Below are positions 15,194-42,669 of a stretch of 64,000 nt of DNA, in pieces. This DNA comes from an uncultured Candidatus Saccharibacteria bacterium (lineage in GTDB: Bacteria; Patescibacteriota; Minisyncoccia; Phycocordibacterales; WO2-35-19). A model generated the notes under the pieces. The model had not been told where the DNA came from and ran no database searches. It saw nothing but the letters and a program-made list of their open reading frames with translations. Where the stretch lies: positions 11,448-75,447 of the forward strand of contig CAZVUY010000004.1 of the NCBI GenBank assembly GCA_964630525.1. Direction: 5' to 3'. The stretch's first letter is position 1. The number at the start of each line of letters is the position of its first letter. The position numbers were made by a program, and so were the translations under genes.

Positions 15194-15552
15194 AGCCATC
15201 AGAAAGTTTGAAAAGAGCTTCTGCCCCAACTTTTGAGCCCGGCCCAGTAACATATCGCCAGGGCTCACAAGTGGGAGCGGAAGCAAACTATGTGGCCCAA
15301 AAGGGCAACCCCACTGCGAGGGTATTTCGGAGGGACCAAGGTCTACTCCACACATGGTGGTGTCGCAGACCAGCTATCCGCTCCCGTGAATATAACAACG
15401 ACTCAACTTCAGCTGGTTCGTGTAGCGGATCGGATCCTGGCAAAGGCCGGCCTGAACAAGGTTGGTCAGCCGAAGAGAAACTGCAAGTATGAAGATCTGT
15501 TGGTGAAAGCCATCAAGACTCCTTGTGGTGGACAACCTGGTTGGCGACGGTA

Positions 15553-15578
15553 GGGGAGATTACTCCCCAATCTTTTCA
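15553..15578 (+). terminator. Intrinsic terminator-like hairpin (GGGGAG-ATTA-CTCCCC, then AATCTTTTC)
   Basis: Perfect 6-bp GC stem with a tetraloop, followed by a T-run. It lies ~360 nt downstream of the 15166 promoter. Confidence 0.5.
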
Positions 15579-15682
15579 GGATTTAAGTAAATTGAATTTT
15601 GGAAAGACCACATGATTGCAAAATCGTGTGGAAAAGAGTTCTTTGATTTTTTGATCCAGTAAACCCTGACCGAAAGGCAGGT

Positions 15683-16735
15683 ATGGATAAGGAGATTTTT
15701 GTGAACAACAATAGCAAGCTCGTCACGATTTTCGGTGCTTTGGTGCCGACGTTCTTCACGACCAAAGGTGGTGTCTCCATTTCGGAGGTTGCTCGCCTGC
15801 AAGCTGAAGCCAAGCAGCAGAACGATACGTTCTGGGCCAGGCTGACCGATGCAACCCGCGGTGTGTTTCGCAAGGTTGTTTCGTTCGTGGGGGCCGGTTC
15901 TTCGGTGCCTCAGACTGTCGCTGGCCCGACCATTTCGGTTGGGGAAATCGGCGGCTACGGCGAGGTGGCGGCGCGCAACGCGTCGACGGCGGTGTTTATG
16001 CACGGTGTCAAGCTCTTCAAGAGTTTGCAGGAGAGGCTTGAGGTGATGGATTTGCGGCTTTTTGTCGTAGAGAAGTTGCCCGAAGCTCCTCCTAGCCCCG
16101 AGCGTCCGCAAGAACCCTCAGAGCCCACACGGGCAAAGAGTGGTACGGTCTGTGACACCCCGGTGTTCATGATGCTCGGCAACATCGACGAGATGATTGC
16201 TGGCCTCAAGCCGGAGGTGCTCGCGCGGTTCGACTTCGCCTTCTGGAAGAGGGCGAATGAGCTCAATGCTCGCGCGGCGGTGATCGGCAAGCTGCTCTCG
16301 GAGCAGGGTTCGTTCTTCCGTGAGGTGATCAAGCCTCTACCTTCGGGTGGTGAGCAGGTCACCCAGGCTGGGGTAGTGATATTCCGGTACGAGAAGGCTT
16401 ACTCGCCCGACGAGCTCGTCGACTTCGTTCGCATTCGCGAGACCCTCCAGGCTGAGTACAACGATTTGCAGAAGCAGCTCAATGGGCTGAAGAAGCAGAT
16501 CAAGGACGCCGTCCGGGCTTACAACCTGGAACAGGAGCGTCAGTACCAGGCCGCGTATGGTGAGTACAGACTCGCATACGCCTCCTATCAGGCTGCCGTT
16601 AAGGAGCTCTTGGTTAATCACCAAGACGCTCTGAAGCGGCACGCCCAGGAGATGGAGCGGATTCGCTCTTCTGCCGAAACGTTGCGACAGGAGGCGCTGG
16701 CTGAAATGGCCACCCTCCGCGTGCGCACGGAGTAG
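15683..16735 (+). CDS. Hypothetical protein with C-terminal coiled coil (island gene A). Probable true start is GTG 15704, which follows AAGGAG
   Basis: Long ORF in a GC-rich segment with protein-like composition. The C-terminal ~100 aa are Q/A/E/R/Y-rich heptads. It is followed by tandem hairpins at 16836-16880. Confidence 0.5.
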   Translation: MDKEIFVNNNSKLVTIFGALVPTFFTTKGGVSISEVARLQAEAKQQNDTFWARLTDATRGVFRKVVSFVGAGSSVPQTVAGPTISVGEIGGYGEVAARNASTAVFMHGVKLFKSLQERLEVMDLRLFVVEKLPEAPPSPERPQEPSEPTRAKSGTVCDTPVFMMLGNIDEMIAGLKPEVLARFDFAFWKRANELNARAAVIGKLLSEQGSFFREVIKPLPSGGEQVTQAGVVIFRYEKAYSPDELVDFVRIRETLQAEYNDLQKQLNGLKKQIKDAVRAYNLEQERQYQAAYGEYRLAYASYQAAVKELLVNHQDALKRHAQEMERIRSSAETLRQEALAEMATLRVRTE

Positions 16736-16928
16736 CGCAGGGCTGACGAGAGGACATGTGCATCCGTAGAGGTTGGTAGAGTAGGAGGTTGAAAGATCTT
16801 CTGCTCCCGCCTCTGCGCGCGCGTGGTCCCACGCTGTTGTGATAAAAAATACAATGAGAATTGTATTGGTTTAAAATCAAACCAAGACACCACACACATC
16901 GGAGCGTTCCCGCGATTTTTCCACTCAG

Positions 16929-16981
16929 GTCTGAGTCTGGAGTCTGCAGGGAAGGCTCGTCTGGGTCTGTGGCTGTGTCTG
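16929..16981. repeat. Array of six GTCTG pentamers within 53 bp
   Basis: GTCTG at 16929, 16935, 16942, 16959, 16965 and 16977, in noncoding DNA between island genes. Confidence 0.7.
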
Positions 16982-17172
16982 CGTTTGGGTCTACAACCTT
17001 CACAACGGCGTGGGACACCTCGTCAGTAAAATCTTCTTTGTTCTTAGCTCGAGAGAATTCTCGAGCTCCCATTTGAGAAAGTAATAAGTTATTTTCTGAA
17101 ATGGGAGAAGGGGAGCCATTTGTTTAATCTTCCGAAAGTTTTGAAGGGAGAAATCCTGCCTAGGGACTACCC

Positions 17173-17201
17173 TTGACAAAGGTGGTTGATAGGTGTATAA
17201 T
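17173..17201 (+). promoter_or_regulatory. Consensus sigma70-type promoter (TTGACA-N17-TATAAT), then RBS AAGGAGGT
   Basis: ttgaca 17173-17178, tataat 17196-17201, AAGGAGGT 17212-17219, ATG 17225. Confidence 0.6.
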
Positions 17202-17224
17202 ATAAGGCAGAAAGGAGGTCAATC

Positions 17225-17437
17225 ATGACCTGGGCAGATTTTTTCAACAGGCCGAAGTACGTCTTCGGCCTCCTCGCCACCTTGGTGGTAGTGTGGTTCC
17301 TCTTCCACCCGGAGGTCTTGGTTGACCTCATCAACCGGGTGGTGATGCCCCTCTTGATGCAGGGGCTGGTGATCGCTATCGTGATCTGGGGTATCAGGAT
17401 CATGATCTTCGGCACCAAAAAGCCACCGAAGAAGTAG
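17225..17437 (+). CDS. Small 2-TM membrane protein with basic C-terminal tail (holin-like topology)
   Basis: 70 aa with two hydrophobic helices (FGLLATLVVVWFLF / GLVIAIVIWGIRIMIF) and a KKPPKK tail. Strong RBS and promoter. Confidence 0.5.
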   Translation: MTWADFFNRPKYVFGLLATLVVVWFLFHPEVLVDLINRVVMPLLMQGLVIAIVIWGIRIMIFGTKKPPKK

Positions 17438-17626
17438 CGGCGCAAAATCCGGTGACCAGCTTTCGCTGAAGCTTCAGCAGGGCAAGCGCACCGGTGTCCG
17501 AGTGAATATACCTCGGGCTTCTACCATAATTTCTTTGAAATTTTAAGGAGATTATGGTGGGAGTAAAAACCCAAAGTTCTTTCAAAATCGCCGGCGGGCA
17601 TTGTACGCAAAGAGGAGACTACTATC

Positions 17627-18037
17627 ATGAAATACATCGCAACACCGTATACACTTACCTTCGTGCCCGCAAACGATGATATTGTGCGAATGAAGGCGAT
17701 GCAACTTCTTATTGATGCTGCGTGGTCAGCTCAGTGGGATGCATGTCAAAATGAGCAGGAGGGCTGGGTGCGCCACTGCCGGTTAAAACTCGAGAGTGGA
17801 CATGTTACTTTGTTGGTGCGTCACTACCAGACCAAGGAAGAAAACTGGGCAGTTCGCATCAACTGCAATAACACGACGAATGGTAAGTTTGTCGTGAGAG
17901 CCTCTTCCAAAAAAGACTTGGAGGAGATTTGGAAGGTAGTTTCAAACCCTCGCCCTGGCAGATTCTTCGACATGGAGTATCTTACTCCTAGGGATATCCA
18001 AGGGGGCGCGGTCTTCTCCGTTGAGTCTGATCAGTAG
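17627..18037 (+). CDS. Hypothetical protein (island gene C)
   Basis: 136-aa ORF preceded by AGAGGAGA. Composition is soluble-protein-like. No recognisable motif. Confidence 0.45.
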   Translation: MKYIATPYTLTFVPANDDIVRMKAMQLLIDAAWSAQWDACQNEQEGWVRHCRLKLESGHVTLLVRHYQTKEENWAVRINCNNTTNGKFVVRASSKKDLEEIWKVVSNPRPGRFFDMEYLTPRDIQGGAVFSVESDQ

Positions 18038-18201
18038 AAAAGGCCTGACCAGCCGTAAAGAGGTCTCTACCTACGAAAGGAGGTGAAAAAACAGGCTGCT
18101 TGGGAACAGGCAGTCTTTTTACATGTAAAAAATAGGTTTTGTCTTCATTTTGGCTTCAAAATGGGTCAAAAAGGGGAGGTAAATAGCACAATATTTGGGG
18201 C

Positions 18202-18463: not shown

Positions 18464-18961
18464 TTGCAGACTACCGCTTTGGGTTTACTGATGATCGCTT
18501 CTGGTATCACTGGGTTCAACGGAGCCCCTTCGGCAGCCAATGTTCTGCCTCCGGAAGTTATTGAGGTAAATGAAGTTCTTCCAGATAATAAGAAAAAGGA
18601 AGAAGAAAGGGTGATCAAAAGAAGTATGACAGTCGAGGAGTATGTGAGAAATTATTTTTCTGATATACCAGTTTTGATCGAGGTGGCTAAGTGTGAATCA
18701 CGGTTTCGTCAGCATGATAAAAATGGCGAAGTTCTACGTGGTGAAGTTAACAACCTTGATCGTGGTGTGATGCAGATCAATGAATATTATCACAATGAAG
18801 ATTCAGCTAAGCTTGGCTACGACATATTGACCATAGAAGGGAACACTGCCTATGCTCGCTACCTTTTCGAGAAGTATGGCATAAAGCCATGGAACTCCTC
18901 AGCTCCTTGTTGGAGCAAAACATTTGCTTATTCCGAATATAAGGAATTGGCATTAAAATAA
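18464..18961 (+). CDS. Secreted lysozyme-like / lytic transglycosylase-family protein
   Basis: Signal-like N-terminus (TALGLLMIASGITGFNGAPSAANV). VAKCESRF ... GVMQINEYYH fits the SLT/lysozyme-like E-S ... G.MQI motif pattern. The ORF caller starts it on TTG; ATG 18491 is an alternative start. Confidence 0.5.
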   Translation: MQTTALGLLMIASGITGFNGAPSAANVLPPEVIEVNEVLPDNKKKEEERVIKRSMTVEEYVRNYFSDIPVLIEVAKCESRFRQHDKNGEVLRGEVNNLDRGVMQINEYYHNEDSAKLGYDILTIEGNTAYARYLFEKYGIKPWNSSAPCWSKTFAYSEYKELALK

Positions 18962-30891: not shown

Positions 30892-30944
30892 ATTTCTTAA
30901 ATATAACCCACCCTGCCCCCCCTTACAACACTAATCTCCCCCAG

Positions 30945-30967
30945 CCCCTCTTTATGTTAAAGAGGGG
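30945..30967. repeat. REP-like hairpin CCCCTCTTTA-tgt-TAAAGAGGGG, followed by GTGACT
   Basis: Same family as 31014-31036, 46100-46124 and 46155-46177. Confidence 0.7.
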
Positions 30968-31013
30968 TGACTAAAATCTAGATTTTAGTGAAATTTTAGT
31001 TATGTTGCGCAGG

Positions 31014-31036
31014 CCTCCCTTTAAAGTGAAGGGAGG
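31014..31036. repeat. REP-like hairpin CCTCCCTTtaaagtgAAGGGAGG
   Basis: Related to the 30945 element, in the same intergenic spacer. Confidence 0.6.
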
Positions 31037-31074
31037 TTAGGAGGGATTATTTGGAAGAACAGGTGGAGGTGAAG

Positions 31075-31989: not shown

Positions 31990-33696
31990 TTACAAAAACA
32001 AGCGGACGAGGCGGAGGTCGTCGTAAGAGTATTTACTGCCGAGGAGTTCTTTGACTGGTGCAAGGCGGTATTGGCCACCTTCGCTTGTACCCACCTTCTT
32101 AAACGCATTGTAGATAGCCTGAAACTTGTTTTTAGGAATGTTGCTGCGGAGATTGTAGATATTAAACTTCGGATCATTGCTTCTGATTTCTTCGATATGG
32201 TCAAAGATGGTGTTTGATTTCAACCCCCTCTCTTTTGCTACCTCTTTGACCCCGAAACCTTTTTCGAGCAATTGTTTGGTTTGGGTGACTGTATCAACCT
32301 TTTTTATTTTCTTTTTGTGATCGTTACTTATTTTTTCGGCGAAGTCAGTGTGCATTTGTGAAATTTTCTGATCACCCATAGTGCGAACATGGAAAGCATT
32401 GGTGGCTGACAACTTTTTGAATTTTTGATCAAAATCAATCACTTCCTCATCTACTTCCAATGCTTTCTCGTTGAAACCTTTTAGGAAAAGACCGGAGAGC
32501 GAGCGGACTCGGGAGAGGGCGACATAGCCCATGCCCTTTTCAAAAGAACGTGATAGATCTATTTGGGCTGCGTCGAGCGACATTCCCTGGCTTTTGTGTA
32601 CCGTGATCGCCCAAGCCAGGCGCAAGGGGTACTGGTTTATCTCGGCTTTGATCTTGTCATCTTCCTCGATAACCCAGGAAGCCCTTTCGACATCGATCTT
32701 CTGGCTGTTTAAGGTTTTCACTCGTATTTCTTCATAACCACAATGCTCGACTGTGCCGAGAGTGCCGTTCACATAACCCTCGTCAAAATTGTTTTTGACA
32801 AACATCACTTTAGCGCCAACTTTGAGTTCCAATTTTTCTGGTGCGAGACAACTTTTCTTCAAAAGTTCTACAAGTGACGGGGTGCCCCGGCTATGCATCT
32901 CGTAAACATGATTTTTATTGTCGATCTTTTTTAGCTCAGTCTGGTTTTCCGAATCAACATCTCGGTTGTGAGAATACAATCTGGTGGGCGACAAGTCTGT
33001 AGATTGGTCGAACCTAGTTTTTAGAATCTCTCGGGTTTCTGTGGTGACCTGATTGTTCCTGATGTCGTTTAATATTTTCAAGAAAAGGTTGTCGTTCTGG
33101 CGGTGCTGCTCCTCGAGGTAGCAGATTTTTAGATCCAAGTTTCGCCAAATATCGGCATGGTAGGCAAAGCGAGCTTCTCGCTCACCGCTCCGGTGCACTG
33201 GCGGTAATTGGAAAAAGTCGCCACAGAAGACTATTTGCATGCCACCAAACGGTTGGTCGACCGACTTGACCGCTCTGATGATCTGATCGACCAGATCAAG
33301 TCGAAAGTGGTGGAGCATCGATATTTCGTCGATTATCAAAACTTGAGCATCCCGGATTTTTTTGCGGATGTGTGATTTTTCGGCGATCTCTAAAGCTTCG
33401 CTATGGCTCAAGCTGTCGCGAATGCCAATGCCCGACCAAGAATGGATGGTGATACCGCCCATGTGGGTAGCGGCTATGCCGGTTGAGGCAGTGACTCCAA
33501 AATCGGCATCAAGTTTTTTGAGGTAGGCTATGTATTCTCGCAAGACATAGGTTTTGCCGCTGCCGGCTGCTCCGGTGAGGAAGACATTGCGTCCAGTTTT
33601 CAAGATATCGAGAGCTTCTTTTTGGGTCATAGGAGATATTGTAGCTCTTTGTGTCCCTTTTTCAATTTCCCCATTTTGGGTATTGACAAAAAGCAT
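31990..33696 (-). CDS. PIF1/RecD-family 5'-3' DNA helicase with C-terminal HTH-like extension
   Basis: Walker A LTGAAGSGKTY, IIDEISM, FCGDFFQLPPV, and C-terminal helicase motifs. The true start is probably the internal Met at 33630 (MTQKEALDIL), because a plus-strand promoter overlaps the ORF-caller start. Confidence 0.8.
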   Translation of the reverse strand: MLFVNTQNGEIEKGTQRATISPMTQKEALDILKTGRNVFLTGAAGSGKTYVLREYIAYLKKLDADFGVTASTGIAATHMGGITIHSWSGIGIRDSLSHSEALEIAEKSHIRKKIRDAQVLIIDEISMLHHFRLDLVDQIIRAVKSVDQPFGGMQIVFCGDFFQLPPVHRSGEREARFAYHADIWRNLDLKICYLEEQHRQNDNLFLKILNDIRNNQVTTETREILKTRFDQSTDLSPTRLYSHNRDVDSENQTELKKIDNKNHVYEMHSRGTPSLVELLKKSCLAPEKLELKVGAKVMFVKNNFDEGYVNGTLGTVEHCGYEEIRVKTLNSQKIDVERASWVIEEDDKIKAEINQYPLRLAWAITVHKSQGMSLDAAQIDLSRSFEKGMGYVALSRVRSLSGLFLKGFNEKALEVDEEVIDFDQKFKKLSATNAFHVRTMGDQKISQMHTDFAEKISNDHKKKIKKVDTVTQTKQLLEKGFGVKEVAKERGLKSNTIFDHIEEIRSNDPKFNIYNLRSNIPKNKFQAIYNAFKKVGTSEGGQYRLAPVKELLGSKYSYDDLRLVRLFL

Positions 33697-33712
33697 CCTT
33701 TGGTTCTATAAT
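33683..33712 (+). promoter_or_regulatory. Consensus sigma70-type promoter (TTGACA-N18-TATAAT) facing a 200-bp GC-rich spacer
   Basis: ttgaca 33683-33688, tataat 33707-33712. Confidence 0.55.
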
Positions 33713-33719
33713 AAACCTA

Positions 33720-33891
33720 GAAAGTTCAGGCTTGCTGAAGCCGCTCAAATTGTCCGTGCGCCTCCTCCACCCACGGATCTCCAACTGAGCGGTTCGCAGC
33801 TGCCCCCGAGATTGCAGGCGTTCTCCCTGGTCACACAACCACTCCTTACACCAGGGTAACATGAACGCCTCTCTCGGGGGTGTTTTCTTTT
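33720..33891 (+). ncRNA. Candidate ~170-nt structured sRNA of unknown family
   Basis: Bounded by the promoter above and an intrinsic terminator: CCCCCGAGA..AGGCGTTC..CCCTGGT(loop)ACCAGGG..GAACGCCT..TCTCGGGGG, then TGTTTTCTTTT. The 5' domain holds a second nested hairpin (CCGCTCA..CCGTG..CACGG..TGAGCGG). No protein-like ORF. Confidence 0.35.
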
Positions 33892-33909
33892 ATAAATTTT
33901 TAGGGTTGA

Positions 33910-35538
33910 TTAAGAATATTTTGGCAATTCGATCGTGAAGGTGGTGCCTTTGCCCAGACCATCGGAATCAACCTTGATATCTCCTTGGTGCGCCTCAACC
34001 ATCTTCTTGGCGATGTAGAGGCCAAGACCGGTACCGATGACGTTGGTTTTATTGGCATCTTTGGTGCGCGAGAATTTGGCAAAAAGCTTGCCCATTTCTT
34101 GAGGATCGATACCAACTCCGGTGTCTTTGATGGCCACCTTTACTTTATTACCCTCAGTGAAGACCGCGATCGATATGTCACCTTTCACGGTGTATTTAAT
34201 GGAATTGTCGATCAGATTGCTGATTGCCTGTTTGATTTTGTTACGGTCGGCATTGACCTCTTGTTTTGCACTTTTGATGTTGACCTGAAGCTCTAATCCA
34301 GCATTTTGTATGTTGGGCTTTATTTCATTTGCTACCTCGTTTACCAGAGCACCGATATCAAAAATCGATTTTTCATAAACCATCCTCCCCTGTTCAATTC
34401 GAGAAATATTAAGGAAATCATTGACAATATTGATGAGGTTTTGGCACGATTTCATAACGATCTCTACTGAGCTTGCCGCCTTGGGTGGCAAGACTCCAAA
34501 ATCCCCCTCAAGCAACATCGAGGAGTAGCCTTTAATGGCGGTGAGCGGTGCTCGGATCTGGTGTGTCGCCAGGGAGAGGAATTCTGATTTGAGTTGGTCG
34601 AGCTCCTTGAGCTTATCGTTGGCTAATTGGAGGTCTTTGGCCAACTTCTCAATCTTTTCTCTCTGTTCGACTTCTCTAAAAACACTTTTAACAATAAGTA
34701 TACCAAGTGTAACAACCAGTATAAATATTCCGCTTCTGAAAATCACTAACTCTAGATTGTTTTTTGCGACTATAACCTCAAACAGACTAACTATTGATAA
34801 TACAAAAGTAAGCGTGCTTGTTGCCAAAACCTTAATTTTAAGAAGATTTTGTTTCGATATTGCGTAAAATGTAAGAATAACGAATGGGAAAAAGAATACC
34901 GGTGCTAGCCCAACGTATCTTGATTTGTCCAATAATGCTGGCAGAATAAAATTGAATATAATGATAAACGAGAAAGTGATAAAAGTACCCAAAGCCACTA
35001 GTTTGTAAGGTTTTCTTTGTCCGCTCTGAACACGAATGGCTTTTCTAATAACTATAAATATTCCACTGACAACAAGGCTTAGTATAATTAACCCAAACAA
35101 AACTATCGCTGGTCCGTTGTTTACCTCCAGTATTTTCCCTGTGTCAGAGGCGGCTTTGATACTACTGAATATGAGAGGAGTGAACGCTACTAAAGAACTT
35201 ACTGTCACTAGGGGTAATAGTAGATATTTATAGGATTTAGGAAAAATTATCAAGTCATTAGGAAAAACATAAAATAATCTAAAGAAAGAAAATGCGTGCC
35301 AAATTGCAAAGAATATAGTTAATTTTAGTAGCCAGAATCCTAAAGTTAAATTTGTGGCTTGATATACCAAGTAATTGGTTACGCTGTAGAGCACTGTAAG
35401 TATTGAGAAGAAAAGAAATGATTGGTTGGTAACACTCTTTGTATTATTAAAATAAACGGTAAAACCAAGGGTGATAATGGCCGATGTTGTTATTGCTACT
35501 GCGAGCAGGTCTAGATTTGTAATTTCATTTATACTCAT
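33910..35538 (-). CDS. Sensor histidine kinase with 7-TM-like N-terminal domain (orphan, no adjacent response regulator)
   Basis: About 7 N-terminal TMs, a coiled-coil linker, HisKA H-box (LSLATHQIRAPLTAIKGY) and HATPase_c (NLIDNSIKYT, GTGLGLYIAKKMVE). Confidence 0.85.
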   Translation of the reverse strand: MSINEITNLDLLAVAITTSAIITLGFTVYFNNTKSVTNQSFLFFSILTVLYSVTNYLVYQATNLTLGFWLLKLTIFFAIWHAFSFFRLFYVFPNDLIIFPKSYKYLLLPLVTVSSLVAFTPLIFSSIKAASDTGKILEVNNGPAIVLFGLIILSLVVSGIFIVIRKAIRVQSGQRKPYKLVALGTFITFSFIIIFNFILPALLDKSRYVGLAPVFFFPFVILTFYAISKQNLLKIKVLATSTLTFVLSIVSLFEVIVAKNNLELVIFRSGIFILVVTLGILIVKSVFREVEQREKIEKLAKDLQLANDKLKELDQLKSEFLSLATHQIRAPLTAIKGYSSMLLEGDFGVLPPKAASSVEIVMKSCQNLINIVNDFLNISRIEQGRMVYEKSIFDIGALVNEVANEIKPNIQNAGLELQVNIKSAKQEVNADRNKIKQAISNLIDNSIKYTVKGDISIAVFTEGNKVKVAIKDTGVGIDPQEMGKLFAKFSRTKDANKTNVIGTGLGLYIAKKMVEAHQGDIKVDSDGLGKGTTFTIELPKYS

Positions 35539-36596
35539 ACCTTTTTAATTTTGGGAGGTTGTTTTTGTGAGCGAGCGGTTACTTTGTCAGCATAACCAAT
35601 TCTGAATACGAAACTCACAACATCTTTTTTTATATTGAAAATTTCTCTAATTATACTATATGTTTTTTTTATTTCATGAATGTGCTTTTCTTTGAAGATA
35701 ATTTTATCATTATGGATAATTTTGTTTGCCAAGAATACTATACCTGTAATTGGTTGTATATATAAATTATGTTTGGTGGCTATTAACCAAATTTTCTGCA
35801 TTATTCTTCCCACCTCAATAAATTTTATCGGCTCATATTTCTCAATGGTAATAATTCCGATACCTCCACCATGGCCGTATATTTTAGCGTTTGTTTTTGA
35901 TACTAAATTAGAGAACCCAAAAATATTCAGAAATCTAACGATGGGCCATACTTTGATTATTCTAAAGATGTATTCTACTATGGCCGGTAATTCTAAGGTT
36001 TTTATGTATAGTCCATGAGTGAACTGACTATTCTCCTGTTCTTTCCAGTTTATTTCAGCAAAAAACGATTGATGGATCAACTTGTTTTCTAGGGCAATTT
36101 TTTCCATTATACTTACAGCTTTCGCAAGAGCGGTTCTTTTAGTTCTACTTTCAGTTATAAGAATTCTGATTCCCGAATCATTTTGATTTACGGATAGGAT
36201 TTCAGTTTTAGCTAACTGATCAATCTTTTTATCGTAATAAATCTTTCGGTTTGTATGCCTGCCGGTTATATAACTGAAAAGTTTGCTGTTGGGATTTTTT
36301 TTTGTTTTTATAAAAGATATGATGGCGACTAAATCTTTTTCTTTAGCCTTATTTAGTACAAGATCTATTTTAGCCTCATACCCATAATGGCTTGAGGCTA
36401 TACAAATATTTTCTATAAGAGCTCCGTGGGCTATATAAGAACCAGTTTGCTCAAAATTCAGCACCGGATTATCTTTGTCTGGTATGTTGTATAAAAAAAG
36501 TTTATTCGATTTTATTTCAAATCTCCATGGTTGTGAATTACCGCCAGAGGGGGCTTGGATACCATAATAGATTATATCTTCTATTAACTTATTCAT
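35535..36596 (-). CDS. Tandem nitroreductase-fold oxidoreductase (SagB/McbC-like FMN-dehydrogenase candidate)
   Basis: The N-terminus YGIQAPSGGNSQPWRF is the classic nitroreductase FMN motif. At 353 aa it is consistent with two fused nitroreductase-like halves. Very AT-rich. Confidence 0.55.
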   Translation of the reverse strand: MNKLIEDIIYYGIQAPSGGNSQPWRFEIKSNKLFLYNIPDKDNPVLNFEQTGSYIAHGALIENICIASSHYGYEAKIDLVLNKAKEKDLVAIISFIKTKKNPNSKLFSYITGRHTNRKIYYDKKIDQLAKTEILSVNQNDSGIRILITESRTKRTALAKAVSIMEKIALENKLIHQSFFAEINWKEQENSQFTHGLYIKTLELPAIVEYIFRIIKVWPIVRFLNIFGFSNLVSKTNAKIYGHGGGIGIITIEKYEPIKFIEVGRIMQKIWLIATKHNLYIQPITGIVFLANKIIHNDKIIFKEKHIHEIKKTYSIIREIFNIKKDVVSFVFRIGYADKVTARSQKQPPKIKKV

Positions 36597-36598
36597 TC

Positions 36599-38182
36599 CT
36601 AAATTTCTTCTAATCTCATAATTTCTATTATTTTTTCTACATCTTTGTTTAGAGGTCTGTCGATATTAACAAAAGAAGACACCTTCCTAATCTTTTTTAC
36701 TACATTTTGAGAATGTGTCGAGCAATTATTCAACCCCCTAAATTCCAAAGCTTGCGCGCTCGAGATTGTTAGTATAGAAACCAGTCTTTCTAGATTCGCC
36801 ACAGATTCCTTTAGGTCTTGTGCTGCGTGTGCTGCTAAGCTGTTTACGTCCTGATTATCTCCTTCTGTGGGGATCATATACGCTTGTTGTGATTGGGCCA
36901 ATTTCCTATTTTGTACCGTAAGTGAAGCAGATAAAATGTGCAGAGGTCTAAATCCATTATAAATTTCAGAATGTTCAATTAGATTTGCTGGAAGACCAAA
37001 ATTTTTTCTCGGGTGATAAAGGTTACTTAATATTGCGTGCAACCAGGTTGAAGCCTGAGAGACGTCCATTTTTAAAAGATCACACGCTTCAGTAACATAA
37101 TAGCCCATAAAGTTTGCTCCGTGACATATTTTCATTGAACTAGGATCTATCACGGGGTTATCATTTATCGAATTTATCTCATCTTCAATCCACTTTTCTG
37201 CTGTTTGTAGGTTCTCTTTAAATACACCAAACCCTTGTGGTACTGACCTAAGAGAATAATAATCTTGAAGATTATTATCTATATTGTTGGACCCGTTTGT
37301 TTTGAAGTTTTTTAAGCTTTTTATTCTCAAATCAGAAAGATTTCTAATCAATCGACTTCCTTTCCATAATTTTCTAATAATATTATTAACTTCAATTTCC
37401 CCACTATGATTTTTTAATTTGTGTACCAATGGATCGTATGCGCTATCGATTACACGGAGTGACTCAAGTGCCATTGATATTGCTGACAGCATTTGATCAA
37501 ATATTCTTTTTAGGTCATACAATGAAATTGCTGCGACCGATGTCATAAAGGATGTTCCATTTATAAGCGCCAAACCCTCACGGGTTTCTAGTTGTAATTT
37601 CTCAAGCCCAACATTTTTCATAGCAATTGCAGATTCAATTTTTCGATTTCCATACAATACCTCTCCTTTTCCTATGAGGGCACTTGCAATACTTGATAAA
37701 GGTATCAAATCACCACTAGCACCAATTGACCCATATTTTCGAATAACCGGATGTATTTTATTGTTTATAAAATCTAAAAGAGAATCAACTACTATTGGTC
37801 TAACACCAGAATGACCAAGTGCCAAACAGTGGGATCTCAACAACATAGTTGCTCTTGAGATCTCCTCGCCCATTTCTTCTCCGAGCCCACAATTATGGGA
37901 AATAACGAGATTTAGTTGGCGATTTTTTAACGACTCAGAATACTCTTTTTCATCACTGTCTAAGTTTTTATCCAATATATTAACCTGGCTGCCAAACTGT
38001 GTGTTAAGTCCATAAACAGGCGTTCTTGTGTCAGCTGAATTTATAAGTATCTGATGAGAAGCCTTCATTTTTGCGATAGATTGTTCGGATAGTCTCACTT
38101 TTGAATTTTCTCTAGCCACCGCTTTGATTGCTGTTAAATCCAATTTTCTTCCTACACCTATAGTTATCATTTTCGTTTTCAT
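36599..38182 (-). CDS. MIO-dependent aromatic amino acid ammonia-lyase/aminomutase (HAL/PAL/TAM family)
   Basis: GSIGASGDLIPLS contains the Ala-Ser-Gly triad that forms the MIO cofactor. Length and conserved blocks match the histidine/phenylalanine ammonia-lyase family. Confidence 0.85.
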   Translation of the reverse strand: MKTKMITIGVGRKLDLTAIKAVARENSKVRLSEQSIAKMKASHQILINSADTRTPVYGLNTQFGSQVNILDKNLDSDEKEYSESLKNRQLNLVISHNCGLGEEMGEEISRATMLLRSHCLALGHSGVRPIVVDSLLDFINNKIHPVIRKYGSIGASGDLIPLSSIASALIGKGEVLYGNRKIESAIAMKNVGLEKLQLETREGLALINGTSFMTSVAAISLYDLKRIFDQMLSAISMALESLRVIDSAYDPLVHKLKNHSGEIEVNNIIRKLWKGSRLIRNLSDLRIKSLKNFKTNGSNNIDNNLQDYYSLRSVPQGFGVFKENLQTAEKWIEDEINSINDNPVIDPSSMKICHGANFMGYYVTEACDLLKMDVSQASTWLHAILSNLYHPRKNFGLPANLIEHSEIYNGFRPLHILSASLTVQNRKLAQSQQAYMIPTEGDNQDVNSLAAHAAQDLKESVANLERLVSILTISSAQALEFRGLNNCSTHSQNVVKKIRKVSSFVNIDRPLNKDVEKIIEIMRLEEI

Positions 38183-39624
38183 TTGTTATCAGATAATATT
38201 ATTTTAGGTTTTTTACCATTGATGCTTACTAATTTAGTTTCCGTTGGCTCAACAAGATTACTTTCATTATATTTTAGAAGTTTGATTACTGGTCGAGCTT
38301 TTTCTCCAATGGCTGAATATAGTTTGCTAAACTCTATGTTCTTTTCAACTAACTCATTTAAAATACGATCGGTGATTTTGGTAAGTATATTGGTAGATGG
38401 TTCTACTCCCTTGGCGAGTTCTAGTGAGATGTGAAGTTTTTGTACCATGTTATTTTTGGTATTTTTGTTATACGCACTAAAATTTCCACTCAATAATTTG
38501 TAGACACTTTTATTTTCTGTGGCCGCCCGAATTGTTTCAGGATATATATTTATTGCATAAAAAGTTACAGCTATATCCGCTCTACCACTTACTATAACGA
38601 ATGGTAGATTCCAGCCAGTATATTCTGAAAGAGATATTTTGTGATTTGTGTCAGCGAGATTTAGTTTTGATAAAATCTCCGATTTTTTATATAAAATCCC
38701 AGTATCGTGTATGTTATAACGTATTAAAGGAGAAAAAGTTGGAGCAGTTAAGATCAACTCCTCGTTTATTGTTTCAAAGTATATATATTCTGGGTGGTAT
38801 TGGAATATGGCTGGGATATTTTTTACTGTACCAAACAAATCTTCGCGAAGTTGATTATTATCAGCCACTCTTTTTCTTAAATAGATAGTAAGTGGTGTTT
38901 CGTGCCCTAGTATACCCGCATCGGCTGAACCGTAAATACTTATTAAATGATGGGAGGATTTCAAGCCAAATTCTTTTACTGCGCAGTCTCTCCATTCCTC
39001 AGTAAACTTATCTCCAGCAGTAATTATGAATTTTCTTTTATTTAAGATAGTTATTTTTTTCTTTTTACACTCATTAATTATATCCATAACAAAAGGTGGG
39101 TATCCTGCCAATATCACGGTATTGAAGTTTGGGGCCACTTCTCTTAGGGTGTTTAAAATATCATTCATTTCTACCCCCGGTGTAACGGTAGTCAGGTTGT
39201 ACCCTCTTCTTGACAGGTGGCGACATGAAGCAAGAGTATAATTACCAGCAACCCAAACACCCATGGCGAAACATACTATTACTAGAACACTCTCTTTTTT
39301 TGTTATTTCAAAAACATTCTTAAATATGTATTCATGAATTTGACCACCAATGATCTCTTGTTCATCACTTCTGGACCAGAAAGTGGGTTTACCAGACGAA
39401 CCAGAGCTTGCGTATATCATGGGAGGAAACTTTTTATTGGGAAATAGGTCAATAAAATTATTTTTATTAAAATAAGATTTTTTATCGGCAATCGGTAGTT
39501 GCTTAAATTCTTCGATTGAGGTTATTCTGTCTTTTTTAAAATTAAGGCTATTTACAAATTGCTTATAACACTTTATCTCGGACATAGCTTTATTTGACAA
39601 ACTTACGACATCTAAATTTTTCAT
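38179..39624 (-). CDS. PaaK-like adenylate-forming enzyme (phenylacetate-CoA ligase / F390 synthetase family)
   Basis: P-loop-like YASSGSSGKPTFW at the position of the PaaK SSGTTGKPT motif. The overall 480-aa layout matches the PaaK/CapK family. Confidence 0.65.
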   Translation of the reverse strand: MKNLDVVSLSNKAMSEIKCYKQFVNSLNFKKDRITSIEEFKQLPIADKKSYFNKNNFIDLFPNKKFPPMIYASSGSSGKPTFWSRSDEQEIIGGQIHEYIFKNVFEITKKESVLVIVCFAMGVWVAGNYTLASCRHLSRRGYNLTTVTPGVEMNDILNTLREVAPNFNTVILAGYPPFVMDIINECKKKKITILNKRKFIITAGDKFTEEWRDCAVKEFGLKSSHHLISIYGSADAGILGHETPLTIYLRKRVADNNQLREDLFGTVKNIPAIFQYHPEYIYFETINEELILTAPTFSPLIRYNIHDTGILYKKSEILSKLNLADTNHKISLSEYTGWNLPFVIVSGRADIAVTFYAINIYPETIRAATENKSVYKLLSGNFSAYNKNTKNNMVQKLHISLELAKGVEPSTNILTKITDRILNELVEKNIEFSKLYSAIGEKARPVIKLLKYNESNLVEPTETKLVSINGKKPKIILSDNK

Positions 39625-39638
39625 TGGATTTATTGGTA

Positions 39639-40763
39639 TTAGAAATTTTTTAAAAAAAACTTTAAATTTTTTTGTCTAGCCTTTTTATTTTGAAGAGAAT
39701 TATAGTCTAATGATATCTGCTTCTCTAAGTTTACAATGTATCTTCCAGAGAGTACTTTTTCTTTGTTTGCCATTTTACGAAGTACATATGCAATAGCCGA
39801 TCCCGCCATTGATGCAGTAGCGCCTAACTGAGGAACGGCGTTGATTGTTTTTCCAATTTTTAAAATAGAATCCCTCATACTTATAGGTAAATAGCTAGGA
39901 TTAACTATTTTGGTAGCAAGGGAAAGCCACTCCTTATAATCCATTTTACTAAAATCCTGATCCTCTATTTTATCTATCAAACCATGGAATAATTTCCTGT
40001 TTGGTTCAAGGTCGTATCTTTCTATATCTAGCACCAAACTGTCGCCATTATCAGTTGCCATAACTATTGGGATTTTCCTTGATCTGGCTATTAGGCGACA
40101 CTTTATTTTTAGTGCAATATCGTCCATTTCATCAATTAAGACATCTATCGCTGGTTTGTTACAAATAAATTTTTCTAGGTTAATTATATTTAGTCCCCTT
40201 TCCCATAATTCTACTTTGGCGTAAGGGTCTAGGTCGTATATGTTTCTAGCTGCAACTAATGTTTTTGGTGATCCGATATCTGAAATCTTTGCTTCAATTC
40301 GGTTTAAATTTGTAATATCTATAGTGTCAAAATCTGCTATTCTTATGTATTTAGGACCCCCACTTTGTATTAGGGTTGATATTATTTTTGAACCAACTGA
40401 TAACCCAGCTATACCGACTCTAAAATCCCTATATTTTTGTTGCTGAGTTTGGGTGATGATATCTCTATTTCTTGCTGTGCGAAGCTTAAAATAGATTTCT
40501 TCCGGAACAGTTTTGATTAGTGTATTTGACCACGGTAAATATATCCATTCTGGTTTTAATTTTCTCTGATTATTAACATATTGCTCTAATAGTTGCTTCG
40601 CTTTCTGATCCTGAGGTCGATATTTGGGATTTTCAATATAAAAAAGTTCTTTTATTGCTTTTAAGTAAATATCAACAAAAACCAGATCTCCTCTATTTTT
40701 TAGGAATTTTTTTAATGTTGACTCATTCTTTATGATCTTTGGTTTTTGGAACACCCTTTTCAT
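39639..40763 (-). CDS. ThiF/MoeB/E1-like adenylyltransferase family protein
   Basis: Rossmann GxGxxG (RVGIAGLSVGSKIISTLIQSGG), an E1-like spacing of acidic residues (ATDNGD), and extra N- and C-terminal regions. Confidence 0.65.
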   Translation of the reverse strand: MKRVFQKPKIIKNESTLKKFLKNRGDLVFVDIYLKAIKELFYIENPKYRPQDQKAKQLLEQYVNNQRKLKPEWIYLPWSNTLIKTVPEEIYFKLRTARNRDIITQTQQQKYRDFRVGIAGLSVGSKIISTLIQSGGPKYIRIADFDTIDITNLNRIEAKISDIGSPKTLVAARNIYDLDPYAKVELWERGLNIINLEKFICNKPAIDVLIDEMDDIALKIKCRLIARSRKIPIVMATDNGDSLVLDIERYDLEPNRKLFHGLIDKIEDQDFSKMDYKEWLSLATKIVNPSYLPISMRDSILKIGKTINAVPQLGATASMAGSAIAYVLRKMANKEKVLSGRYIVNLEKQISLDYNSLQNKKARQKNLKFFLKNF

Positions 40764-40842
40764 CTGTTCTGGCGGATCTATTCCTACACTTACTGATCTG
40801 GCTATTCTACAATAAATTCTTAAAAATTACTATCAAAGATTA

Positions 40843-42669
40843 TTACTCAAAATCTTGCTTTTGTTTTTGGTAAGCTAGGGCGTAGCGACCGCCAAGGTTT
40901 AAAAGTTCGGCATGTTTACCCTTCTCCACTACTTCCCCTTCATGCAAGACAATGATCTCGTCAGCTCGTTTGATGGTGGCAAAGTTGTGGGAAATCAAGA
41001 CAGCCGAAATGTCGTCGGGCAAATTTTCGATTTCATTGAAAATAATATTGGCTGATTCGGCATCGATCGAGGCAGTTGGTTCGTCCAGAATCAAAAACCT
41101 CTTTCCTTTATAAAAAGCGCGGGCAATCGCCAGCTTTTGGCGCTGACCTTTTGATGGTTCGATCCCACCAAATTCTACACCGATCATATGGTTGTATTTC
41201 TGATCGAGTTCTTCAATGAAGTCTCCAATCGTACTTTTCTTGGCAGACTCTTTGACATCGTCCAACCTTATTTTCTCAGATATATTACCGACAGCGATCG
41301 ACTCTTTGACCGTAAAATTGTAAGTAGTGAAATCTTGAAGTAGGACACCCAACTCTTGCCACCATTTTGCTAAATCAAGCTGCTTTAGGTCGACCCCACC
41401 CACCGTGATTTTGCCTTTGACTGGATCGTGGATACGTAAAAGTAGGCGAACCAAGGTCGATTTGCCAGCGGCGTTGTTGCCGACCAAGCCGATTTTTTGG
41501 CCGGGCTCTATGACGAAGGACACATTTTTTAAAGCCCATTTTTGTTGCCCAGGATATTTGAAGTAGACATTTTCAAAGACCACTCTTGGTGCTTGGTGCA
41601 GATCAAGCTTTTTAGGATTTTTTGGGTATTTAAGAGCTGGACTTTCGTCGAGAATACTAAAAATGTCTGTTACGTAAAGGTTTCTTTCCAAGATACGGGC
41701 GGTGTTGGAGAGCATGCTAGAAGTCCAGCCGCTTACTCGGTTTAAAGTATCAAAGGCAAACACGACTGTACCGATAGCTACTAGACCAGCGATAGCATCA
41801 TTGATAATGATCGCTGTACCTACAAAAAGGCCTGCAGCTGCAAATATACTGGCCGAAATTTTCATTATTGTTTTCCAATGTTCGGCACTAAGTTGTTCTT
41901 TTGTAAAACCGCTCAAAATTTGTTTGATATCTGACAAAAATTTTTCTCCCGTTTGGTAAAGTTTGCTATCGATAACTGATATTTTTTGCATAAAAAATCT
42001 TCTCAGATCTATATATCTGCGTTGCTCAGTACTATTTTTGGCCCAGATAGCCCAAATTCGGCCTCCGTGTTTGATATCAATCCAAAAATTAGGTATAGAA
42101 GTGACAAAAACTAGTAGAAACACTCGCCAATCGATGGTGGCTGCCGCGATCGACCCCACCACGATACCGCAGAAAATTTCTAAATTTTGGATTTGAGCAT
42201 CGACCACGTTGATGAATGGGTAGATACCATTGTTGAAAGCGCGTTGCAGCCTGTCTTGGAATTTTGGATCTTCATATTGAGCAATATCAAAGGAGCCGCG
42301 CTTTCTGAGGGTGATGAGTTCGAATAGGTCTTGCATTTTCAAAAATAGGTTTCGGTCAATAAAGGAAACAACATTTCTAATGACGGTAGGGATGGCGGTA
42401 AGGATGGCAAACCAAATAAGGGCTGGGTAGGCCACTGACACATCAGAAGTTTCCACTCCTTCTATTATTTTATCTATCAAGGTGCCCAGTGCTTTGGCTG
42501 AGAAAATGGGTACGATACCCATAATAATTGTCAATACTAAGATTGATGAAAATAGCCATGGCAGATGCCTAAAAAGAATGGCAAAAATTCGGCCAGTATT
42601 TCTAAATAAGGCTTTGAAATTTTCTATGCTTTTCTGTTGTTTTGCTAGATTTTCAGTATTTTGACTCAT
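40843..42669 (-). CDS. ABC exporter, fused transmembrane and ATP-binding domains
   Basis: N-terminal 6-TM domain. C-terminal NBD with GNNAAGKST (Walker A), LSGGQRQ-like signature (SKGQRQKLAIARA) and LILDEPT (Walker B). Confidence 0.9.
   Translation of the reverse strand: MSQNTENLAKQQKSIENFKALFRNTGRIFAILFRHLPWLFSSILVLTIIMGIVPIFSAKALGTLIDKIIEGVETSDVSVAYPALIWFAILTAIPTVIRNVVSFIDRNLFLKMQDLFELITLRKRGSFDIAQYEDPKFQDRLQRAFNNGIYPFINVVDAQIQNLEIFCGIVVGSIAAATIDWRVFLLVFVTSIPNFWIDIKHGGRIWAIWAKNSTEQRRYIDLRRFFMQKISVIDSKLYQTGEKFLSDIKQILSGFTKEQLSAEHWKTIMKISASIFAAAGLFVGTAIIINDAIAGLVAIGTVVFAFDTLNRVSGWTSSMLSNTARILERNLYVTDIFSILDESPALKYPKNPKKLDLHQAPRVVFENVYFKYPGQQKWALKNVSFVIEPGQKIGLVGNNAAGKSTLVRLLLRIHDPVKGKITVGGVDLKQLDLAKWWQELGVLLQDFTTYNFTVKESIAVGNISEKIRLDDVKESAKKSTIGDFIEELDQKYNHMIGVEFGGIEPSKGQRQKLAIARAFYKGKRFLILDEPTASIDAESANIIFNEIENLPDDISAVLISHNFATIKRADEIIVLHEGEVVEKGKHAELLNLGGRYALAYQKQKQDFE

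What the first reader, a model, noticed from the sequence alone, without database searches (positions are those of the whole stretch)
33683..33891. Stand-alone candidate sRNA with consensus promoter and long nested-hairpin terminator
The 213-bp gap between the helicase start and the histidine-kinase stop is GC-rich and contains TTGACA-N18-TATAAT. This is followed by two nested stem-loop domains and a GC-clamped terminator with a U-tract, all on the plus strand. That strand is opposite to both flanking genes, so it cannot be their terminator. The predicted ~170-nt transcript has no ORF. Its size and the two-domain hairpin architecture would suit 6S-like or other regulatory RNA. I found no SRP domain IV motifs.
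Basis: seen in the sequence. Interest (0 to 1): 0.55.

Follow-up and report, generated by a model that had tools for sequence, protein, structure and literature searches.

The report
Fast-evolving small RNA in a Patescibacterium
The spacer holds a real, previously uncatalogued ~175-nt non-coding RNA gene of a small clade of Patescibacteria (CPR bacteria), which always shows a CCUCC-type sequence in a hairpin loop although the genome itself hardly uses the matching ribosome-binding sites.

Summary
A perfect TTGACA-N18-TATAAT promoter lies at 33683-33712 (+). It is followed by two hairpin domains, and the second domain is a long intrinsic terminator with a T-tract (to 33891). There is no conserved ORF.

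I recovered the same element in 9 further contigs (7 distinct alleles in all), always divergent from a Pif1-like helicase and convergent with a histidine kinase. The organisms are Patescibacteria/Parcubacteria. All alleles keep:
- the promoter hexamers;
- a GCUG/CAGC closing helix;
- the terminator;
- an apical loop carrying CCUCC, usually CCUCCUCC.

The stems change by compensatory substitutions: 13 pairs changed on both sides, 96.8% of cells paired, 0/500 shuffles. Twenty-one G·U cells support the + strand. No Rfam family matches, so it is not 6S or SRP RNA.

Two features are unusual:
- The RNA body evolves unevenly. It is strongly conserved on some branches. On others it is rebuilt at or above the synonymous rate, inside flanks that are 90-100% identical.
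- The genome is almost free of Shine-Dalgarno sites (2/51 genes) and rich in leaderless genes.

Best reading: a trans-acting, base-pairing sRNA of the C-rich-loop kind. It resembles 6C, RsaE and LhrC in logic but is not a member of those families. No target could be named.

The parts
33683..33712 (+). sRNA promoter: -35 TTGACA (33683-33688), 18-nt spacer, -10 TATAAT (33707-33712)
   Evidence: It matches 12/12. Only 3 perfect sites occur in the window against 0.02 expected. Both hexamers and the N18 spacing are present in all 9 homologous contigs, although the spacer sequence differs.
33719..33892 (+). Predicted sRNA transcript (~174 nt). The 5' end is inferred from -10 spacing and the 3' end from the T-tract.
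   Evidence: Covariance model R1, built without the window sequence, hits 33714-33894 at 72.6 bits, E 1e-21. R2 gives 138.8 bits. There is no conserved ORF. The ends are inferred, not mapped.
33719..33733 (+). Single-stranded A/U-rich 5' tail (consensus AGAAnUUUnAG)
   Evidence: It is unpaired in the folds of the alleles and semi-conserved in alignment A6.
33734..33800 (+). Hairpin domain 1: P1 GCUG/CAGC (33734-37 / 33797-800), P2 (33740-47 / 33786-93), P3 (33752-58 / 33772-78)
   Evidence: P1 is essentially invariant (one G-C to G·U change in 7 alleles). P2 and P3 carry 4 and 3 pairs changed on both sides. Each allele folds the same way when folded alone.
33759..33771 (+). Apical loop CGCCUCCUCCACC. 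The CCUCCUCC core is at 33761-33768 and resembles the anti-Shine-Dalgarno sequence.
   Evidence: A CUCC motif sits in the apical loop of every allele (CCUCCUCC, UCUCCUCC, CACCUCC) with P(unpaired) 0.99-1.00. It is kept even where the surrounding stem was replaced (L018, L013).
33802..33881 (+). Hairpin domain 2, a long nested terminator hairpin: outer stem CCCCCGAGA/UCUCGGGGG, middle stem GGCGUUC/GAACGCC, inner stem 33825-31/33850-56, and a variable C/A-rich loop at 33832-33849
   Evidence: z = -6.3 for this domain alone. The inner stem has 4 of 6 pairs changed on both sides. The inner stem and loop are deleted in the L013 allele.
33883..33891 (+). T-tract (TTTTCTTTT) of the intrinsic terminator
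   Evidence: Found by the terminator scan. It is identical in all alleles. No T-tract follows the hairpin on the minus strand (sequence).
33638..33665 (-). Back-to-back promoter of the helicase: TTGAAA (33665-33660), N16, TACAAT (33643-33638). The ATG at 33630 lies 7 nt after the -10, so the mRNA is probably leaderless.
   Evidence: It matches 10/12. TTGAAA and TACAAT+7 nt+ATG are conserved in the alleles that carry the sRNA. TACAAT+7 nt+ATG is also kept in L003, which lacks the sRNA.
31990..33630 (-). Pif1-like helicase with a C-terminal HTH_40 domain (546 aa), the divergent neighbour
   Evidence: Pfam PIF1 at 1.3e-41. Homologues are Patescibacteria/Parcubacteria.
33910..35538 (-). Orphan 7TM-HisKA histidine kinase (542 aa), the convergent neighbour. 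Its stop codon lies 18 nt beyond the sRNA T-tract.
   Evidence: Pfam HATPase_c, HisKA and HisKA_7TM. The kinase half is conserved in all loci that carry the sRNA. The sensor half (beyond ~34600) is hypervariable.

Best explanation
The spacer encodes a lineage-restricted, independently transcribed, structured small RNA of about 175 nt. A strong sigma-70-type promoter fires away from the helicase promoter. The transcript has a short A/U-rich 5' tail, then a three-helix hairpin whose apical loop shows CCUCCUCC, then a long hairpin that serves as an intrinsic terminator.

Shown:
- The gene-like anatomy.
- Its conservation in seven alleles.
- Structure-preserving (compensatory) evolution.
- The strand.
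- The invariance and exposure of the CCUCC loop.
- The absence of an ORF.
- The absence of any Rfam match.

Inferred:
- The RNA acts in trans by base pairing. The exposed C/U-rich loop is the seed, and it pairs with G-rich (GGAGG-like) stretches of target RNAs. No chaperone need be invoked, because a few G-C pairs between single-stranded regions suffice, as in other C-rich-loop sRNAs.
- Because this genome is almost devoid of Shine-Dalgarno sites, such a seed would touch only a small set of mRNAs, namely the few SD-led genes or other G-rich sites, rather than translation in general.
- The stems act as a scaffold under structural constraint only. That is why they are repeatedly rebuilt while the loop motif, promoter and terminator stay fixed.
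For: Anatomy. The promoter matches 12/12, and such sites number 3 in the window against 0.02 expected. There is a terminator with a T-tract on the + strand only. Fold z = -4.9.

Homologues. The element is found in L001, L002, L006 and L013-L018, always between the kinase and the helicase. The promoter is present in all of them.

Structure. On alignment A6, 96.8% of cells are paired and 13 pairs changed on both sides. No shuffle of 500 reached this, and slid controls gave 0-3. With 4 sequences there were 9 such pairs. Single-sequence folds of every allele give the same architecture.

Strand. Twenty-one G·U cells would be A·C on the other strand, dropping pairing from 96.8% to 90.0%.

Loop. CUCC is in the apical loop of all alleles with P(unpaired) of about 1, including alleles whose stem was replaced.

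Selection. The RNA diverges far less than synonymous sites between L001 and L002 (0.156 against 0.61, p = 3e-18) and between L002 and L006 (0.065 against 0.286, p = 1e-8).

Other points:
- No conserved ORF.
- The -10 consensus TATAAT is evidently used by this organism: 11/51 genes have a >=5/6 TATAAT 5-9 nt before the start, against 1.6% background.
- Precedent for the mechanism: 6C sRNA binds targets through C-rich loops without chaperones (PMC6486639). UCCC/CU-rich loop motifs of LhrC, RsaE, RNAIII and SprD bind SD regions (PMC4132741, PMC2790875).
Against: - There is no expression data, and the 5' and 3' ends are inferred.
- No target could be nominated. Translation-initiation regions in the window are on average less complementary to the loop than random windows (mean -7.3 against -10.05 kcal/mol; the best, trpS upstream at -18.2, is only at the 5th percentile). 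The few SD-led genes score -11.8 to -13.6. There is no excess of long complementarity anywhere in the window.
- Only 2 of 51 genes have an SD-like motif, so the classical 'block the SD' mode has few substrates here.
- Only 7 distinct alleles from one narrow clade were found, and the alignment used for pair counts was fitted to the model.
- A 5-8 nt CU-rich motif could equally well be a protein-binding site.
Confidence: 0.55

Rival explanations
1. A protein-binding or decoy RNA. The exposed CCUCC(UCC) loop mimics the 3' tail of 16S rRNA (the anti-SD). It would titrate a protein that recognises that sequence, such as a ribosome-biogenesis or small-subunit factor, or another pyrimidine-binding protein, rather than pairing with mRNAs.
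For: The only invariant single-stranded element is a short CU-rich motif shown on a stable hairpin. The L018 loop reads CACCUCC, identical to the canonical 16S tail core (the identity to the 16S tail rests on my own knowledge). The genome hardly uses SD sites, and no mRNA target emerged. That the anti-SD core CCUCC is conserved across prokaryotes is stated in PMC10783764.
Against: There is only one motif copy per RNA in most alleles, whereas known sponges carry many. No candidate partner protein is linked to the locus. The 16S rRNA of this organism was not available to compare. The idea is speculative.
Confidence: 0.2
2. A cis-acting antisense or insulator element. Strong convergent transcription, and the RNA's perfect complementarity to read-through kinase transcripts, would stop or destroy kinase mRNA that runs towards the helicase. 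The product would have no trans function.
For: The kinase has no T-tract terminator of its own, and its stop codon lies 18 nt from the sRNA T-tract. The kinase-sRNA-helicase arrangement is fixed in all 10 loci.
Against: Pure interference needs neither a conserved CCUCC loop, nor compensatory maintenance of helices, nor sequence conservation far below the synonymous rate. The relative L008 has kinase and helicase 17 bp apart with no such element, so insulation is not obligatory.
Confidence: 0.12
3. Not an RNA gene. The palindromic, GC-rich DNA would be a DNA-level element (a REP/MITE-like repeat or recombination site) or merely a bidirectional terminator next to a chance promoter.
For: Both strands fold about equally well. 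The region is a local hotspot of sequence turnover.
Against: It is single copy: there is no second copy in the window with filters off, and none in the loci of relatives. There is no match in the phage, plasmid or viral collections. The perfect promoter is conserved in all alleles. G·U pairs are asymmetric between strands. The T-tract is on one strand only.
Confidence: 0.05
4. A divergent 6S RNA or SRP RNA.
For: The size of ~175 nt and the strong constitutive-looking promoter fit. Neither RNA was found elsewhere in the 64 kb.
Against: No Rfam hit to 6S or SRP appears even at E<=10. The RNA forms two independent hairpins instead of one rod with a central bubble. It has no GNRA-capped domain IV. 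The family is absent from relatives at <=74% helicase identity at this locus, and its body is partly deleted in the L013 allele. Both points are unexpected for a universal housekeeping RNA.
Confidence: 0.02

Closest known systems
6C sRNA (Rfam RF01066; Mycobacterium B11/6C)
   Same: A stand-alone short sRNA made of hairpins whose C-rich loops are the target-binding sites. It needs no chaperone, and its host phylum has many leaderless mRNAs (PMC6486639; the leaderless context is from PMC3898074 and PMC4633059, titles and abstracts).
   Different: There is no covariance-model match. The host is Patescibacteria, not Actinobacteria. The RNA is about twice as long. Only one loop carries the motif, and the motif is CCUCCUCC (mixed C/U) rather than a run of six or more C. 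The second loop is C/A-rich and variable.
UCCC/CU-rich-loop sRNAs of Firmicutes (RsaE/RoxS, LhrC1-5, RNAIII hairpins, SprD)
   Same: C/U-rich motifs shown in hairpin loops pair with G-rich ribosome-binding regions (PMC4132741 section 'A redundant CU-rich motif'; PMC2790875; PMC5419742). LhrC is controlled by a two-component system. Here the gene sits next to a histidine kinase.
   Different: There is no sequence or CM relationship. Here the genome has almost no SD sites to block. The link to the kinase is positional only, and no response regulator is nearby.
Streptococcal csRNAs (CiaRH-dependent sRNAs) and Helicobacter RepG
   Same: From my own knowledge, not tested here. csRNAs carry anti-SD-like sequences and depend on a two-component system. 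RepG uses a C/U-rich loop to bind a G-repeat that varies between strains.
   Different: No homology was detected. Here it is the sRNA body, not a known target, that varies between strains. No anti-AUG element lies next to the CCUCC motif.
6S RNA / SRP RNA
   Same: Similar length and a strong promoter.
   Different: The architecture and motifs are absent and no CM match was found. See the membership test.

Membership tests
Stand-alone bacterial sRNA gene (generic kind) | Own promoter and own intrinsic terminator in an intergenic region, not part of a neighbouring mRNA | tested here: met
   The promoter matches 12/12 and there is a hairpin plus T-tract on the + strand. Both neighbours are on the minus strand. 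The promoter is conserved in all alleles.
Stand-alone bacterial sRNA gene (generic kind) | Non-coding: no conserved ORF | tested here: met
   The longest ORFs are not shared between alleles in any frame.
Stand-alone bacterial sRNA gene (generic kind) | Conserved secondary structure supported by compensatory changes | tested here: met
   Thirteen pairs changed on both sides, 96.8% of cells paired, 0/500 shuffles, and slid controls gave 0-3. Caveat: there are only 7 alleles and the alignment was fitted to the model.
Stand-alone bacterial sRNA gene (generic kind) | Detected transcript of the predicted size and strand | not testable with these tools
   No transcriptome data were available.
C-rich-loop base-pairing sRNAs (functional class: 6C, RsaE/RoxS, LhrC) | C-rich motif exposed in hairpin loop(s) | tested here: met
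   CCUCC(UCC) is in the apical loop of all alleles with P(unpaired) 0.99-1.00.
C-rich-loop base-pairing sRNAs (functional class: 6C, RsaE/RoxS, LhrC) | Demonstrable complementary G-rich target sites, typically at ribosome-binding sites | tested here: inconclusive
   There is no enriched target among 51 initiation regions or anywhere in the window. Only about 6-10% of a genome was available.
6C RNA (RF01066) / RsaE (RF01820) as sequence families | Match to the family covariance model | tested here: not met
   Neither is listed at E<=10 for 33500-34050 or at E<=5 in five homologous loci.
6S RNA (RF00013 and relatives) | Match to a 6S covariance model | tested here: not met
   No hit at the gathering threshold or at E<=10.
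6S RNA (RF00013 and relatives) | One long, mostly double-stranded rod with a large central bubble (open-promoter mimic) | tested here: not met
   All alleles fold into two adjacent independent hairpins.
Bacterial SRP RNA (4.5S) | Domain IV with a GNRA-type tetraloop and conserved internal loops; CM match | tested here: not met
   No Rfam hit. The apical loops are 9-19 nt and CU- or CA-rich.
CsrB/RsmZ-type CsrA sponges (if read on the minus strand) | Multiple GGA motifs in loops of the transcribed strand | tested here: not met
   GGAGGAGG would be in a loop only on the minus strand. The promoter, the T-tract and 21 G·U cells point to the + strand. There are only 1-2 motifs.

The most novel reading that the evidence does not exclude
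In a Patescibacterium whose own genes are leaderless or SD-less, an abundant sRNA showing the anti-SD sequence could act as a translation-level filter. It would selectively silence the rare SD-led mRNAs. In the window these cluster in a GC-rich, possibly foreign island at 15.7-18 kb, and include a strongly promoted 70-aa hydrophobic protein with a perfect AAAGGAGGU site. The episodic, faster-than-neutral rebuilding of the RNA body between near-identical strains, next to a kinase whose sensor half is also hypervariable, would then reflect an arms race or strain-specific retuning.
Probability: 0.07. Interest if true: 0.85.

Novelty: new member of a known kind. Interest (0 to 1): 0.5.

Why it matters
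My literature searches found no described regulatory sRNAs for Patescibacteria/CPR, and Rfam has no model for this one. This is a clean, comparatively supported example.

It has three features a specialist would want to follow up:
- It shows an anti-SD-like seed in a genome that has largely abandoned SD-led initiation.
- Its tempo is heterogeneous: deep conservation on some branches and structure-preserving rebuilding at or above the neutral rate on others.
- It is placed back-to-back with a leaderless helicase promoter and tail-to-tail with an orphan sensor kinase.

If the target set can be found from complete genomes, it would give a first view of post-transcriptional control in these reduced, uncultured bacteria. 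By itself, however, it is one more lineage-specific sRNA of a familiar general type.

Tried and rejected
- Rfam. Gathering threshold on the whole window gave only tRNA-Gly. The E-value mode on the region gave only chance hits: Yfr10 18 bits against 43 needed, BSnc150, ybhL. Five homologous loci gave nothing relevant.
- Public-collection scans with exact patterns from the terminator half. Genome contigs returned one chance hit in an Acidobacteriota coding region. Metagenome contigs returned two chance hits. The patterns were too strict: the L013-type allele from JGI reads AAACACC instead of GAACGCC.
- Viral contigs, phages and plasmids gave no match.
- More alleles came instead from members of the helicase protein clusters. 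The window's own helicase and P0125 were not on record.
- Paralogue search with model R2, filters off, over the window and over relatives' loci found none. The best other hit was 15 bits inside a coding region.
- Target search: RNAduplex of the loop against 51 initiation regions, with a background; k-mer complementarity over the window; the four SD-led genes. None stood out.
- A small peptide was rejected.
- A minus-strand leader or riboswitch for the helicase was rejected. The helicase has its own conserved promoter placed for a leaderless mRNA downstream of the structure, and the G·U asymmetry favours the + strand.
- My first impression of 'much faster than neutral' evolution was toned down. 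With a score-optimised pairwise alignment the substitution divergence between window and L001 is 0.12. With the structure-aware alignment it is 0.26 against 0.17 at fourfold sites (p = 0.03).
- PHROG and Pfam searches of the SD-led island genes were uninformative.
- Literature searches for CPR sRNAs or SD usage in CPR found nothing specific.
Full report
**1. What is in the sequence**

Neighbours and spacer:
- Region 33631-33909 lies between two minus-strand genes.
- One is a Pif1-like helicase with a C-terminal HTH_40 domain (Pfam PIF1 1.3e-41). The other is an orphan 7TM-HisKA histidine kinase.
- The longest helicase ORF starts at 33696. All homologues begin with MTQKEALDIL, which is the ATG at 33630.

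Anatomy on the + strand:
- TTGACA-N18-TATAAT lies at 33683-33712 and matches 12/12. Only three such perfect sites exist in 64 kb, against 0.02 expected.
- Downstream, the RNA folds into two domains: hairpin 1 (33734-33800) and a long nested hairpin (33802-33881). The latter is followed by TTTTCTTTT (33883-33891).
- The scan reports the base of hairpin 2 as an intrinsic terminator.
- The fold is -70.4 kcal/mol with z = -4.9. Domain 2 alone has z = -6.3.
- The minus strand folds about as well, so strand had to be decided in other ways.
- The transcript is 55% G+C against 43% for the window.

**2. Organism and homologues**

- The helicase's relatives are all Patescibacteria: Parcubacteria, Paceibacterota and Zambryskibacteria.
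- I fetched contigs for the closest helicases and for members of their 90% clusters.
- The element is present, always upstream of and divergent from the helicase and downstream of a kinase homologue, in these contigs:
  - L001 and L015;
  - L013 = L014 = L016 = L017;
  - L002, L006 and L018.
- It is absent at this locus where the helicase is <=74% identical (L003-5, L007-9). In L008 the kinase and helicase are 17 bp apart.
- There is no second copy in the window, even with filters off, and none in the other loci.
- Exact-pattern scans of the genome, metagenome and viral collections gave only chance hits or nothing. BLAST against phages and plasmids found nothing.
- The family is therefore narrow and single-copy per locus.

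**3. Is it a structured RNA, and on which strand?**

- A covariance model was built from three homologues only, without the window. It finds window 33714-33894 at 72.6 bits, E about 1e-21.
- On the resulting structure-aware alignment of 7 distinct alleles:
  - 96.8% of cells are standard pairs;
  - 13 of 49 pairs changed on both sides;
  - no shuffle of 500 reached this;
  - sliding the partners gave 0-3 such pairs and 43-49% pairing.
- With 4 sequences the figure was 9 pairs.
- The compensatory changes concentrate in P2, P3 and the inner stem of the terminator hairpin.
- The alignment is fitted to the model, which flatters the counts. However, each allele folded on its own gives the same architecture.
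- Strand evidence:
  - 21 G·U cells would be A·C on the other strand, dropping pairing from 96.8% to 90.0%;
  - the T-tract follows the hairpin only on the + strand;
  - the perfect promoter with N18 spacing is present in all nine homologous contigs although the spacer sequence differs.
- No ORF is shared between alleles.

**4. What is conserved and what is not**

Conserved:
- Invariant: both promoter hexamers, the outer and middle terminator stems, and the T-tract. The P1 helix GCUG/CAGC is nearly so (one G-C to G·U change).
- Semi-conserved: the A/U-rich 5' tail.
- An apical loop containing CUCC. It is usually CCUCCUCC, and CACCUCC in L018. P(unpaired) is 0.99-1.00 in every allele.
- That loop motif persists even where the supporting stem was replaced (L018), or where the whole domain was rebuilt and the inner terminator hairpin deleted (L013).

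Tempo, which is uneven:
- Helicase fourfold-site divergence is 0.17 between the window, L001 and L013, and 0.6 between that group and L002/L006/L018.
- The RNA diverges far less than that between L001 and L002 (0.156, p = 3e-18) and between L002 and L006 (0.065 against 0.286, p = 1e-8).
- It diverges at or above the synonymous rate between window and L001 (0.262 against 0.171, p = 0.03, plus 8 indel events). It is comparable for L013 and L018.
- In a sliding window, identity between window and L001/L013 is 90-100% across the helicase, its promoter and the kinase half of the HK.
- Between 33700 and 33860 it drops to 55-75% (L001) and 32-58% (L013), then recovers at 33863.
- The RNA body is thus a sharply bounded island of turnover. 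A cruder pairwise alignment gives lower substitution figures, so I do not claim strong positive selection.
- My claim is only episodic, structure-preserving remodelling, which could also reflect allele replacement by recombination.
- A second variable block begins inside the kinase's sensor half (~34600) and extends into a low-GC gene block that L001 lacks.

**5. Genomic context that bears on the mechanism**

- Of 51 genes in the window, only 2 have an SD-like motif 4-20 nt upstream. Random positions give 10.7%.
- Eighteen genes have TANNNT, and 11 have a >=5/6 TATAAT, ending 5-9 nt before the start codon. Background is 7.9% and 1.6%.
- The organism is therefore largely leaderless or SD-less. 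The helicase next door (TACAAT + 7 nt + ATG) is an example.
- The few SD-led genes cluster at 15.7-18 kb in a region of up to 57% G+C. They include a 70-aa hydrophobic ORF with AAAGGAGGT behind another perfect promoter.
- An anti-SD-like seed in such a genome would have few natural partners.
- I could not nominate one. Initiation regions are on average less complementary to the loop than random windows. The SD-led genes score -11.8 to -13.6 kcal/mol, unremarkable against a background of -10 ± 4. No long complementarity is enriched.

**6. Most likely mechanism, and rivals**

I commit to a trans-acting base-pairing sRNA. Its seed is the exposed CCUCCUCC loop and the remainder is scaffold and terminator. 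The logic is that of C-rich-loop sRNAs:
- 6C binds targets through C-rich loops without chaperones (PMC6486639).
- The UCCC/CU-rich motifs of LhrC, RsaE, RNAIII and SprD bind SD regions (PMC4132741, PMC2790875).

My confidence that this is a real sRNA gene is about 0.85. My confidence in the gene plus this mechanism together is 0.55.

Rivals:
- A decoy or protein-binding RNA that mimics the 16S 3' tail (0.2). The motif is short and the genome lacks SD sites, but there is only one motif copy and no partner protein.
- A cis antisense or insulator against kinase read-through (0.12). The kinase has no terminator of its own, but this would not explain the loop, the covariation or the deep conservation, and L008 does without it.
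- A DNA-level element (0.05).
- 6S or SRP RNA (0.02).

**7. Comparison with the known, and novelty**

- No Rfam 15 family matches, so the RNA is not a member of 6S, SRP, 6C or RsaE.
- Functionally it resembles the C-rich-loop sRNAs.
- I file it as a new member of a known kind, with two unusual twists: the SD-poor host and the uneven tempo.
- Literature searches found no description of sRNAs or SD usage in Patescibacteria.

**8. Verdict**

Interest is moderate (0.5). This is a solid, comparatively validated, uncatalogued sRNA in a poorly explored phylum. Its function is inferred and no expression data exist.

Noticed in passing
window 15166-15580 (+): A second perfect TTGACA-N16-TATAAT (15166-15193) is followed by a ~385-nt G+C-rich stretch without a convincing ORF. 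The stretch ends in GGGGAGATTACTCCCC plus a T-run. It folds to -158.3 kcal/mol, z = -5.6, and has no Rfam hit at E<=1. This is a candidate larger unknown ncRNA.
   Followed up: partly
window 17173-17437 (+): The third perfect consensus promoter (17173-17201) drives a 70-aa hydrophobic ORF (17225-17437). AAAGGAGGT lies 6 nt before the ATG, the strongest SD seen in the window. There is no Pfam or PHROG match. It could be a toxin- or holin-like small membrane protein.
   Followed up: partly
whole window (51 gene starts): The genome is almost SD-free and rich in leaderless genes. Only 2/51 starts have an SD-like motif (background 10.7%), while 18/51 have TANNNT and 11/51 have a near-consensus TATAAT 5-9 nt before the start (background 7.9% and 1.6%).
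   Followed up: yes
window 15700-18100: The few SD-led genes (15701, 17225, 17627) cluster in a region of raised G+C, up to 57% against a 43% mean. It also holds many spurious overlapping ORFs and a lysozyme-like gene at 18464-18961. It may be a foreign island.
   Followed up: partly
window 33630-33696 and 33638-33665 (-): The 568-aa form of the helicase, as called in P0001 and P0125, is probably an over-extension that would overlap the sRNA promoter. The real start is 33630. A conserved TTGAAA-N16-TACAAT precedes it, with the ATG 7 nt after the -10, so the mRNA is leaderless. This promoter lies back-to-back with the sRNA promoter.
   Followed up: yes
window ~34600-41000: The sensor (7TM) half of the histidine kinase and the genes upstream differ completely between strains whose helicase is 97% identical. 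Here there is a 32-35% G+C block with an aromatic amino-acid lyase (36599-38182) and a nitroreductase-like gene. L001 instead has AdoMet decarboxylase and SET-domain genes.
   Followed up: partly
L008:1-771 and L009: A relative with 72% helicase identity has the kinase homologue only 17 bp upstream of the helicase and no sRNA. The sRNA was therefore either gained in the ancestor of the two carrier groups or lost here.
   Followed up: partly
window 30892-31074 (-): The 183-bp spacer upstream of trpS holds a G-rich run (GGGGGGGCAGGGUGGG, about 15-35 nt before the ATG) and a hairpin (CCCCTCTTTAACATAAAGAGGGG). It was the best match, though still unremarkable, to the sRNA loop at -18.2 kcal/mol. 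No T-box or other Rfam hit was found.
   Followed up: no
window 4644-4715 (-): tRNA-Gly(CCC) is the only Rfam or ARAGORN hit in the 64 kb.
   Followed up: yes
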